Virus record (IMG/VR): IMGVR_UViG_3300028888_002023
Coordinates: 12,176-76,175 of that record
Length of the DNA stretch: 64,000 nucleotides
Source of the DNA: a virus
Lineage: Duplodnaviria > Caudoviricetes
Strand: one strand, 5' to 3'
Shown here: in pieces, positions 15,372 through 16,223 of the stretch
Position numbering within the stretch: the stretch's first letter is position 1
How the letters are laid out: each line of letters begins with the position of its first letter
Program-made: the position numbers and the translations under genes
Notes under the pieces: generated by a model
What the model saw: the letters and a program-made list of their open reading frames with translations, nothing else
The model's database searches: none
Told to the model about the DNA's origin: nothing

Positions 15372-16223
15372 TTAAATATCCATATATACTATAAATGCAG
15401 AGCTAGATGAACTTGATGAACTTGAAGAACTTGAACTTGAAGAACTACAAGAACTACAATTCACTGTAAAATAAGTTGAAATAACATGAATACCAGCCGT
15501 GGTATTTAGGCTATTCATGAAACTTGCTAAACTGGTTGTTAATTCTGTAGAAGTAAAAGAAGTCTGTGTATTGTCTTGAGGTACGCCATTTACGAAGGTA
15601 TCATTAAGGACAGGAATAGCAGTGTTATTATTAGTAGTTCCATATGCTGGGGACTGCTTATTAAAAGGTTCCGCAGGTGATGTATATGATGCTGTTCCAG
15701 AAGTTGACTTTGTTATACTTTCAGTAATAGTAGCACTGGAAACTGATGCATTTGAATCATATACAAAGTAACCTCTTGATGTATCAAATGGTGAATATAC
15801 TTGTACTACTTTTGCTCCCATAAAAGCTGCAAAGTTTTGGAAAAAATGTACCATAGCCTTGAATGTCATTACAGTATTATCTTTATTTGACATACCTAAA
15901 TTATTCATAAAGGTGTCAAATTGATTTGTTACTGTACTACTTGACACAGCAGTAACAAAAGAATCATTTACAGTAAGTTTTAATGTTGCAGTATGTGCTT
16001 TTCTAATAGGGTTCCAAGGTGCTGGGTGGTTGTATAATGCATAAACATTATGCATTATTGTTCCAACATTTTTTGGTGTATCAACATTTCTGGTATAACC
16101 ATCTTTTAAAGAGGCTGGTATAGAAGAAACACTGCCTATGTTACAGCATTTAGCTATTAACTGTTCTAAAGCATAATTTCTTAAATCTGAATATTTACAT
16201 ATATAATTTGAACCTATTGTCAT
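15372..16223 (-). CDS. Ser/Thr-rich putative virion protein with C-terminal NCSSC-S16-AFIVYMDI tail (candidate RiPP-like substrate)
   Basis: 283-aa ORF; 16 consecutive Ser after CSSC, encoded by mixed TCN/AGY codons. Confidence 0.7.
   Translation of the reverse strand: MTIGSNYICKYSDLRNYALEQLIAKCCNIGSVSSIPASLKDGYTRNVDTPKNVGTIMHNVYALYNHPAPWNPIRKAHTATLKLTVNDSFVTAVSSSTVTNQFDTFMNNLGMSNKDNTVMTFKAMVHFFQNFAAFMGAKVVQVYSPFDTSRGYFVYDSNASVSSATITESITKSTSGTASYTSPAEPFNKQSPAYGTTNNNTAIPVLNDTFVNGVPQDNTQTSFTSTELTTSLASFMNSLNTTAGIHVISTYFTVNCSSCSSSSSSSSSSSSSSSSAFIVYMDI

What the first reader, a model, noticed from the sequence alone, without database searches (positions are those of the whole stretch)
15372..15480. 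C-terminal core-like tail NCSSC-S16-AFIVYMDI under protein-level selection
Seen: the 16 Ser codons mix AGT, TCT, TCA and AGC, i.e. both Ser codon boxes. This argues against simple slippage of one triplet and for selection on serine. A CxxC precedes the run and a hydrophobic 8-mer caps it. The paralog at 14645..15367 has no such tail. Inference: this is the modified core, or a dense acceptor array for glycosylation, phosphorylation or dehydration.
Basis: partly seen in the sequence, partly recalled or inferred. Interest (0 to 1): 0.8.

Follow-up and report, generated by a model that had tools for sequence, protein, structure and literature searches.

The report
Phage Ser/Cys-tailed protein with radical-SAM set
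The serine run is real and is the hallmark tail of a large, undescribed family of giant-phage proteins that always sits beside its own set of radical-SAM enzymes, so the tail is probably what those enzymes chemically modify, though the chemistry is unknown.

Summary
Observation confirmed. ORF 15372..16223 (-), 283 aa, ends N-CSSC-S16-AFIVYMDI-stop. The 16 Ser codons are AGT5, TCT4, TCA6 and AGC1.

The tail is not peculiar to this window. A profile search found at least 250 protein clusters, and 109 of the 152 proteins inspected end the same way:
- a Ser/Cys run, median 21 residues, with 0-7 Cys;
- then x-F-I-A-Y-M-x-[I/L] at the C-terminus.

The cap is the best-conserved part of the protein. 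Run codons vary synonymously between relatives, so selection acts on the protein.

In 23 of 25 loci fetched through the enzyme alone, and in every tail- or motif-seeded locus with enough flank, the tailed protein (A) lies with a tail-less paralog (B) or a second A, a ~250-aa protein (C), and 3-9 radical-SAM genes. These enzymes fall into four old clades; I, II and IV are always present. The window has six.

The enzymes resemble peptide- and protein-modifying rSAMs:
- EpeE/YydG by sequence profile, E 2.5e-9;

Best reading (0.6): the tail is the enzymes' substrate. Whether the chemistry is epimerisation, Ser/Cys oxidation or crosslinking is undetermined. The window's GT2 and CotH genes are not part of the conserved module.

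This scan has already found the same module on other genomes. No paper in the library searched describes it.

The parts
15372..16223 (-). Protein A: 283-aa family member with a folded N-terminal alpha/beta domain and the Ser/Cys tail
   Evidence: ORF list. Four homologs at 31-39% identity. Family HMM E 1.2e-57. AF2 pTM 0.72 with the tail disordered.
15399..15458 (-). Cys/Ser run CSSC+S16 (20 residues)
   Evidence: Family run length has median 21, range 10-32, with 0-7 Cys. The nearest relatives have the same length of 20.
15375..15398 (-). C-terminal cap AFIVYMDI. Family consensus: x-F-I-A/V/G-Y-M-[KDNE]-[IL]-COOH
   Evidence: Position profile of 120 tails: F 84%, I 93%, Y 90%, M 82%; 90 of 120 end exactly after [IL]. 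Relatives show synonymous changes only.
14645..15367 (-). Protein B: tail-less paralog of A. It starts 4 nt after A's stop
   Evidence: Family HMM E 1e-14. A B gene, or a second A, follows A in nearly all loci.
16223..16975 (-). Protein C: conserved 250-aa partner of unknown fold. It overlaps A's start by 1 nt
   Evidence: jackhmmer finds it next to A in nearly all loci. No Pfam, PHROG or PDB-sequence match. Unrelated to A.
13754..14629 (-). Radical SAM, clade I
   Evidence: PF04055 E 1.9e-7. Tree. Conserved C15/C19/C22 plus C172, C261, H263, C276, C279. AF2 pTM 0.86.
12823..13761 (-). Radical SAM, clade III (no C-terminal Cys/His site)
11940..12833 (-). Radical SAM, clade III (second copy)
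10993..11916 (-). Radical SAM, clade II
10038..11015 (-). Radical SAM, clade IV
7479..8438 (-). Radical SAM, clade IV (second copy)
8431..9483 (-). NifS-like protein (weakly PLP-fold), probably without the Schiff-base Lys. A frequent member of the module
   Evidence: Present in 17 or more loci. Profile vs PDB: 1ecx, E 0.0075. The consensus reads TAHAL where NifS has SxHK.
9489..10010 (-). 173-aa protein that recurs inside the rSAM array; function unknown
   Evidence: Homologs in 10 loci. No family match.
16987..18267 (-). Fibre-like protein heading the operon
   Evidence: PHROG tail-fibre matches. Homologs lie upstream of C-A-B in many loci.
5796..7439 (-). Second fibre-like protein closing the module
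   Evidence: Shares a domain with 16987..18267 (E 1e-42 to 7e-54). Relatives flank the module in L018-L025.

Best explanation
The tail is the defining C-terminal extension of a large, uncharacterised family of proteins from uncultured, mostly jumbo (170-310 kb) phages. Each member has three parts: a folded domain of about 150-230 aa with no recognisable fold, a disordered run of about 20 Ser/Cys, and a hydrophobic cap FIAYMxI at the C-terminus. The protein is co-transcribed with a dedicated set of radical-SAM enzymes from four anciently diverged clades. These enzymes have the architecture of peptide- and protein-modifying rSAMs. Most likely the enzymes bind the exposed tail and modify it by hydrogen-atom abstraction, with the cap as recognition handle and/or target and the Ser/Cys run as target and/or tether. 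Candidate chemistries are C-alpha epimerisation (EpeE-like), C-beta oxidation of Ser/Cys to formylglycine (anSME-like) and thioether or ether crosslinks (CteB/SkfB/CrpC-like). The product would be a modified protein of the tail-fibre region. Shown: the family, the tail's conservation, the obligate synteny and the kinship of the enzymes. Inferred: that the tail is the substrate, which residues are modified, the chemistry, and a location in the virion.
For: (1) Conservation. At least 250 clusters at E<=1e-3. 109 of 152 proteins inspected carry the tail. The cap residues are 82-93% conserved and the five residues before the cap are 89-94% Ser, against a mean column identity of 18% for the whole alignment. 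Run length is 20 in the window and in its three nearest relative groups, at about 40% overall identity.
(2) Selection on the protein. Every tail mixes AGY and TCN codons as the rest of its gene does, and close relatives differ only synonymously. There is no RNA structure (z +1.2) and no Rfam match.
(3) Synteny, tested from three independent seeds. Motif-seeded: L006-L017. Seeded on rSAM clade I: 23 of 25 loci have a tailed A; one of the two exceptions has A elsewhere on the same contig, and the other is a divergent rSAM. A-seeded, including members with aberrant caps. Clades I, II and IV occur in every complete module.
(4) Operon. Gaps or overlaps of at most 27 nt run from 18267 down to 7479.
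(6) Precedent for an rSAM modifying a full-size Cys-rich protein: CrpC/CrpA (PMC13692751).
Confidence: 0.6

Rival explanations
1. Linker plus docking peptide. The poly-Ser/Cys run is a flexible spacer, and the FIAYMxI end is a strand that plugs into B, C, a fibre or the virion. The rSAM enzymes act on something else: another protein of the module, a small molecule or a nucleotide.
For: The tail is predicted disordered (pLDDT <50). Poly-Ser linkers are common (general knowledge). The cap is the most conserved part and usually ends the chain exactly. In some relatives the A N-domain is fused to a glycine-rich fibre-type domain instead of the tail (PF21722), as expected of a structural module. 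Viperin-like similarity of the enzymes.
Against: It does not explain why Cys, and only Cys, is tolerated in the run (8-36% per position). It does not explain why the tailed protein and the rSAM set never separate, or why the enzymes are closest to peptide-modifying rSAMs. The only reported phage DNA-modifying rSAM, M6 gp53, is SPL-like with its cluster motif at residue 125 (PMC8989533), unlike these enzymes.
Confidence: 0.2
2. Metal, Fe-S or sulfur-relay tail. The Cys/Ser run binds iron-sulfur clusters or carries persulfide, together with the NifS-like protein, to supply the many rSAM enzymes.
For: A NifS-like gene lies inside most modules. The run usually has 2-5 Cys. Six Fe-S enzymes need cluster supply.
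Against: Several tails have 0-1 Cys (L014/L023/L039 have 30 S and 0 C; L007, L017 and L038 have 1 C). The window has only the two Cys at the start. The NifS-like protein appears to lack the PLP lysine. Cys positions are not fixed.
Confidence: 0.07
3. Acceptor array for O-glycosylation or phosphorylation by the GT2 (4639..5703) or by the CotH-type kinase domain of the giant protein (3..4070) encoded downstream.
For: GT2 at E 1.9e-17 and CotH at E 5.4e-13 are present in the same strand block. Bacillus CotH phosphorylates Ser-rich coat proteins (general knowledge).
Against: Neither gene has a counterpart within +/-10 kb of the module in any of the other loci held, whereas the tail is universal. 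At best this is a window-specific extra decoration.
Confidence: 0.05
4. Neutral low-complexity expansion by replication slippage, without function.
For: 9/15/24-nt periodicity in the run. Duplicated Cys-Ser7/8 units in relatives.
Against: The run is kept in more than 100 clusters at a similar length and with a fixed cap, changes are synonymous only, and the composition is restricted to Ser and Cys.
Confidence: 0.02

Closest known systems
EpeE/YydG with EpeX/YydF (Bacillus subtilis epipeptide; rSAM peptide epimerase, PDB 8ai1-8ai6)
   Same: Closest solved relative by sequence profile (E 2.5e-9 over the rSAM core, shared SYD motif) and first in Foldseek. Similar size, about 300 aa. The cluster motif lies at the extreme N-terminus with no RRE.
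Anaerobic sulfatase-maturing enzyme anSMEcpe (PDB 4k36-4k39)
   Different: 10-11% identity and no anSME family hit. anSME has a full SPASM domain with two auxiliary clusters, whereas these enzymes conserve only 3-4 extra Cys plus a His, or none. The sulfatase motif C/S-x-P/A-x-R is absent from the tail.
Thioether-forming rSAM maturases of Cys-rich substrates (CteB/SCIFF, SkfB, PapB, and CrpC/CrpA of Methanococcus voltae, PMC13692751)
   Different: Those enzymes carry SPASM domains and RREs and need Cys donors. Here some tails have no Cys at all, no RRE was found, and no full SPASM motif is conserved.
Proteusin epimerases (PoyD/polytheonamide), recalled from the literature and not tested here
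   Same: Many residues of one long ribosomal product are modified by rSAM chemistry, and the 'leader' is unusually large.
   Different: The enzyme family was not compared here. No nitrile-hydratase-like leader was detected.

Membership tests
rSAM-dependent RiPP system | Maturase gene(s) genetically linked to the precursor | tested here: met
   A lies with 3-9 rSAM genes in 23 of 25 rSAM-seeded loci and in all motif- or A-seeded loci with enough flank.
rSAM-dependent RiPP system | Short precursor made of a leader and a core, with the core released by a peptidase and/or exported | tested here: not met
   The precursor is a 200-290-aa folded protein. No peptidase or transporter family is among the conserved neighbours.
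rSAM-dependent RiPP system | RiPP recognition element (PqqD-like), fused or discrete | tested here: inconclusive
   The cluster motif starts at residue 13-19, so no N-terminal RRE is possible. There is no PqqD hit in Pfam for any module protein. C and B have unknown folds and could replace it.
EpeE/YydG epimerase family | Sequence homology with CX3CX2C and core motifs | tested here: met
   Profile E 2.5e-9, positions 4-179, SYD motif aligned. The relationship is remote, 17-20% identity.
EpeE/YydG epimerase family | Auxiliary [4Fe-4S] cluster in a T-SPASM domain | tested here: inconclusive
   Clades I, II and IV conserve C-G-H...C-x2-C (3 Cys + His; a fourth Cys in I and II). Clade III has none. 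Whether the site holds a cluster or zinc is not decidable from sequence.
EpeE/YydG epimerase family | H-atom donor Cys (Cys223 of EpeE) | tested here: inconclusive
   No Cys outside the SAM-cluster motif is invariant across the 31 enzymes. The HMM alignment stops at EpeE residue 182.
anSME (SPASM) family | Seven-Cys SPASM motif binding two auxiliary clusters | tested here: not met
   Only 3-4 conserved extra Cys in clades I, II and IV, and one in III. No NCBIfam or Pfam SPASM or anSME hit.
anSME (SPASM) family | Substrate motif C/S-x-P/A-x-R | tested here: not met
   The tail holds no Pro or Arg.
anSME (SPASM) family | Overall fold similarity | tested here: met
Sacti-/ranthipeptide systems | Cys donors in the substrate are required | tested here: not met
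   Tails with 0 Cys (L014, L023, L039) and with 1 Cys keep the full enzyme set.
Slippage-generated simple repeat | Single repeated codon or unit, with length hypervariable among close relatives | tested here: not met
   Four Ser codons from two boxes. The same run length occurs in relatives at about 40% identity, and five close IMG/VR relatives all have 23.

The most novel reading that the evidence does not exclude
Giant phages use a dedicated four-clade radical-SAM toolkit to rewrite a run of about 20 serines and cysteines at the end of a tail-fibre-region protein. The product would be a polymer not known in any protein: for instance a poly-formylglycine (poly-aldehyde) or mixed D/L or crosslinked stretch that is protease-proof or chemically reactive, used in adsorption or virion assembly. 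This would be a new class of protein post-translational modification, and the first hypermodified structural protein of a phage.
Probability: 0.25. Interest if true: 0.9.

Novelty: new variant of a known kind. Interest (0 to 1): 0.75.

Why it matters
Radical-SAM maturation is known for short peptides (RiPPs) and for a few proteins such as sulfatases, glycyl-radical enzymes and CrpA. Here a whole enzyme set of 3-9 paralogs in four old clades is devoted to one phage protein with an extreme, conserved Ser/Cys tail.

The module is widespread in uncultured jumbo phages, yet it is absent from all 50,697 deposited phage genomes and from the searched literature. If the tail is modified, this defines a new protein modification and new rSAM subfamilies, and it suggests an unsuspected layer of phage virion or tail-fibre biochemistry. 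It is directly testable by co-expression and mass spectrometry.

Tried and rejected
- Near-identical DNA in GenBank phages: no match. tblastn of rSAM clade I and of a family member against the same collection: no match.
- First IMG/VR scans with the single protein and with the tail alignment gave no confirmed locus, because the patterns were uninformative. A back-translated cap pattern and a clade-I alignment then worked.
- The mixed rSAM alignment was too divergent for pattern scans.
- The profile of A against PDB sequences hit only low-complexity Ser stretches.
- Protein C: no PDB-sequence match and no relation to A by hhalign.
- The clade-I profile alone gave no PDB hit at E 0.01.
- RNA explanations rejected: folding z-score +1.2 and no Rfam match.
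- Correlation of run length with rSAM number: none.
No docking evidence exists either way.
- DNA-hypermodification reading (rSAM + PLP-fold + dUTPase-like genes). It was considered because of PMC8989533. It was set aside because that rSAM is SPL-like, because none of the proteins scanned in or next to the module matched a 5-hmdU kinase or pyrophosphorylase family, and because it leaves the tail unexplained.
- Host assignment from MAG labels (Bacilli, Succinivibrionaceae, Melainabacteria, Erysipelotrichaceae, Bacteroides) rejected. The labels conflict with each other and probably reflect mis-binned phage contigs.

Full report
**What is in the window.** The window is part of a 76-kb fragment of an uncultured phage (about 37% complete, GC about 31%). 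It encodes a tail sheath, a head-maturation protease and several fibre proteins. On the minus strand, ORF 15372..16223 encodes a 283-aa protein that ends N-C-S-S-C-(S)16-A-F-I-V-Y-M-D-I. The 16 Ser codons are AGT x5, TCT x4, TCA x6 and AGC x1, in the same proportions as in the rest of the gene. No other Ser/Cys run of 9 or more residues exists in any frame of the window, and about 3e-15 such runs are expected by chance. The DNA of the run is periodic at 9, 15 and 24 nt. Duplication of multi-codon units has therefore contributed, and mixed codons alone would not prove selection.

**The tail is a family hallmark.** Four homologs at 31-39% identity all keep the tail. Three of them have a Ser/Cys stretch of exactly 20 residues and the identical ending AFIVYMDI.
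- A profile search of 1.84 billion representatives found 250 proteins at E<=1e-3 and 139 at E<=1e-10.
- Anchored on the cap (n=120), the consensus is x-F(84%)-I(93%)-A/V/G-Y(90%)-M(82%)-[K/D/N/E]-[I/L]. Ninety of the 120 chains end exactly there.
- The five residues before the cap are 89-94% Ser. Cys peaks at position -7 (36%) and is otherwise 4-25%.
- The whole-protein alignment has a mean column identity of only 18%, so the tail is the best-conserved part.
- All relatives mix both Ser codon boxes, and close relatives differ only synonymously in the run and cap.
- The RNA has no unusual structure (z +1.2) and no Rfam match.

The window's tail lies at the Cys-poor, long-Ser end of the spectrum. 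The representative tails have at most 11 uninterrupted Ser, but six metagenomic loci have 17-30.

**The module.** The operon is tightly packed, with gaps or overlaps of at most 27 nt from 18267 to 7479. Its gene order is:
- a fibre-like protein;
- C (250 aa);
- A (the tailed protein);
- B, a tail-less paralog (HMM E 1e-14);
- five radical-SAM genes;
- a 173-aa protein;
- a NifS-like protein;
- a sixth radical-SAM gene;
- a second fibre-like protein.

All six rSAMs share W-x2-C-x3-C-x2-C, GGE and (T)S-x-D-x3-R-F. A maximum-likelihood tree of 31 such enzymes resolves four well-supported, deeply separated clades. The window has one of clade I, one of II, two of III and two of IV. Clades I, II and IV conserve a C-terminal C-G-H...C-x2-C site (3 Cys + His, with a fourth Cys in I and II). 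Clade III has none.

**Test of linkage, from three independent seeds.**
- (a) A back-translated cap pattern pulled 12 IMG/VR loci. Wherever flank was available, A was followed by B and rSAMs of this family.
- (b) A clade-I rSAM alignment pulled 19 IMG/VR loci and 6 MAG contigs, and 23 of these 25 carry a tailed A plus C within 10 kb. Of the two exceptions, L029 lies on a contig that has the rest of the module elsewhere (L009), and L036 is a divergent rSAM at 27% identity.
- (c) Family members chosen for divergence or odd caps (GFIIYSNLN, VFIGWWKI, LTIVHQDLSLL), and the nearest homologs, again sit beside C and beside clade I, II and IV enzymes where the contig allows.

Every complete module has clades I, II and IV, and most have III. 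Some modules have two tailed proteins instead of A+B, and some genomes have two modules. Apart from further rSAM genes, the families that recur most widely next to the module are C, B, the NifS-like protein, the 173-aa protein and fibre-like proteins. The window's GT2 and CotH-domain giant protein have no counterpart near the module elsewhere.

**What the enzymes resemble.**
- The 31-sequence profile hits only EpeE/YydG strongly among solved structures (E 2.5e-9, rSAM core, SYD motif aligned). Viperins follow at 1.8e-5.
- An AF2 model of the clade-I enzyme (pTM 0.86) ranks EpeE first in Foldseek (7.5e-8), with viperin close behind (1.8e-7).

The leading matches are thus enzymes that abstract hydrogen from residues of peptides or proteins. 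anSME is known to accept both Cys and Ser, which matches the free Ser/Cys exchange in the run. None of the curated family models is reached. A full SPASM motif and an RRE are absent, so these are new subfamilies, not members of any named one.

**What A, B and C are.** The A domain models confidently (pTM 0.72) as an alpha/beta domain whose last strand runs straight into the disordered tail. No similar fold was found. B ends right after that last strand. In a few relatives the A domain is fused to a glycine-rich, fibre-type domain instead of the tail. The module is often bracketed by fibre-like genes. Together these points suggest, but do not show, a virion or tail-fibre role. C has no detectable relative and is unrelated to A.

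**Interpretation.** The most economical reading (0.6) is that the tail is the substrate of the co-encoded rSAM set. In this reading the hydrophobic cap serves as handle and/or target, and the Ser/Cys run serves as target and/or tether. The chemistry is open: C-alpha epimerisation, C-beta oxidation to formylglycine, or crosslinking. The rivals are:
- a plain linker plus docking strand, with the enzymes acting elsewhere (0.2);
- an Fe-S or sulfur-carrier tail (0.07; tails with no Cys argue against it);
- a glycosylation or phosphorylation acceptor for the window's GT2 or CotH (0.05; these genes are not conserved near the module);
- neutral slippage (0.02).

**Known or new.** Neither A nor the clade-I rSAM matches any of the 50,697 deposited phage genomes. 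Six literature searches found no description. The nearest precedents are EpeE/EpeX (PMC13012085) and CrpC/CrpA, an rSAM that crosslinks a full-size Cys-rich protein (PMC13692751). The only reported phage DNA-modifying rSAM is of a different, SPL-like type (PMC8989533).

This scan has already met the same module on several other genomes, and earlier follow-ups reached similar conclusions. I re-tested those claims here and do not count them as evidence. I rate the finding a new variant of a known kind: rSAM maturation of a genetically linked ribosomal product, with an unprecedented substrate architecture and enzyme set.

Noticed in passing
window 3..4070 (-): A giant protein of more than 1356 aa runs off the window. 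It has a CotH-kinase domain (PF08757, E 5.4e-13) and a Gly8 run encoded at 3588..3611. It has no counterpart near the module in other loci.
   Followed up: partly
window 4639..5703 (-): GT2 glycosyltransferase (E 1.9e-17) in the same strand block. It is specific to this phage's version of the region.
   Followed up: partly
window 8431..9483 (-); A7: The NifS-like protein recurs inside the rSAM arrays, duplicated in L027, L037, L040 and L041. Its similarity to NifS is weak (1ecx, E 0.0075), and the consensus reads T-A-H-A-L where cysteine desulfurases have S-x-H-K. It may be a pseudo-enzyme or a scaffold.
   Followed up: partly
loci L002-L042: Modules with more rSAM genes, especially two clade-III copies, encode fewer Cys in the tail (Spearman rho -0.62, p 0.003). 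The test is not corrected for shared ancestry.
   Followed up: partly
L023, L037; L030, L031, L033, L034, L047: Some jumbo-phage genomes carry two complete modules. Others have two tailed paralogs in place of A+B.
   Followed up: no
P0133, P0079: In some relatives the A-type N-terminal domain is fused to a glycine-rich domain (PF21722) instead of, or in addition to, the Ser/Cys tail.
   Followed up: no
L006, L008, L011, L012, L015 tails; window 15408..15455: The run is built from duplicated 24-27-nt units, each encoding Cys-Ser7/8. Length therefore changes by unit duplication while composition stays fixed.
   Followed up: partly
L037-L042: Contigs carrying the module, two of them 249 and 284 kb long, are deposited inside MAGs labelled Bacilli, Succinivibrionaceae, Melainabacteria, Erysipelotrichaceae and Bacteroides. 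They are probably phage contigs binned with bacteria.
   Followed up: no
L016:2327-3283, L028:6170-7156, L036:12612-13880: Further, more divergent radical-SAM genes outside the four clades lie next to the module in several phages.
   Followed up: no
L038:16593-17243 and 8 other contigs: A conserved ~207-aa protein sits inside the rSAM array of nine contigs, with a weak TYW3-methyltransferase-like hit (E 4.7e-4). It is absent from the window.
   Followed up: no
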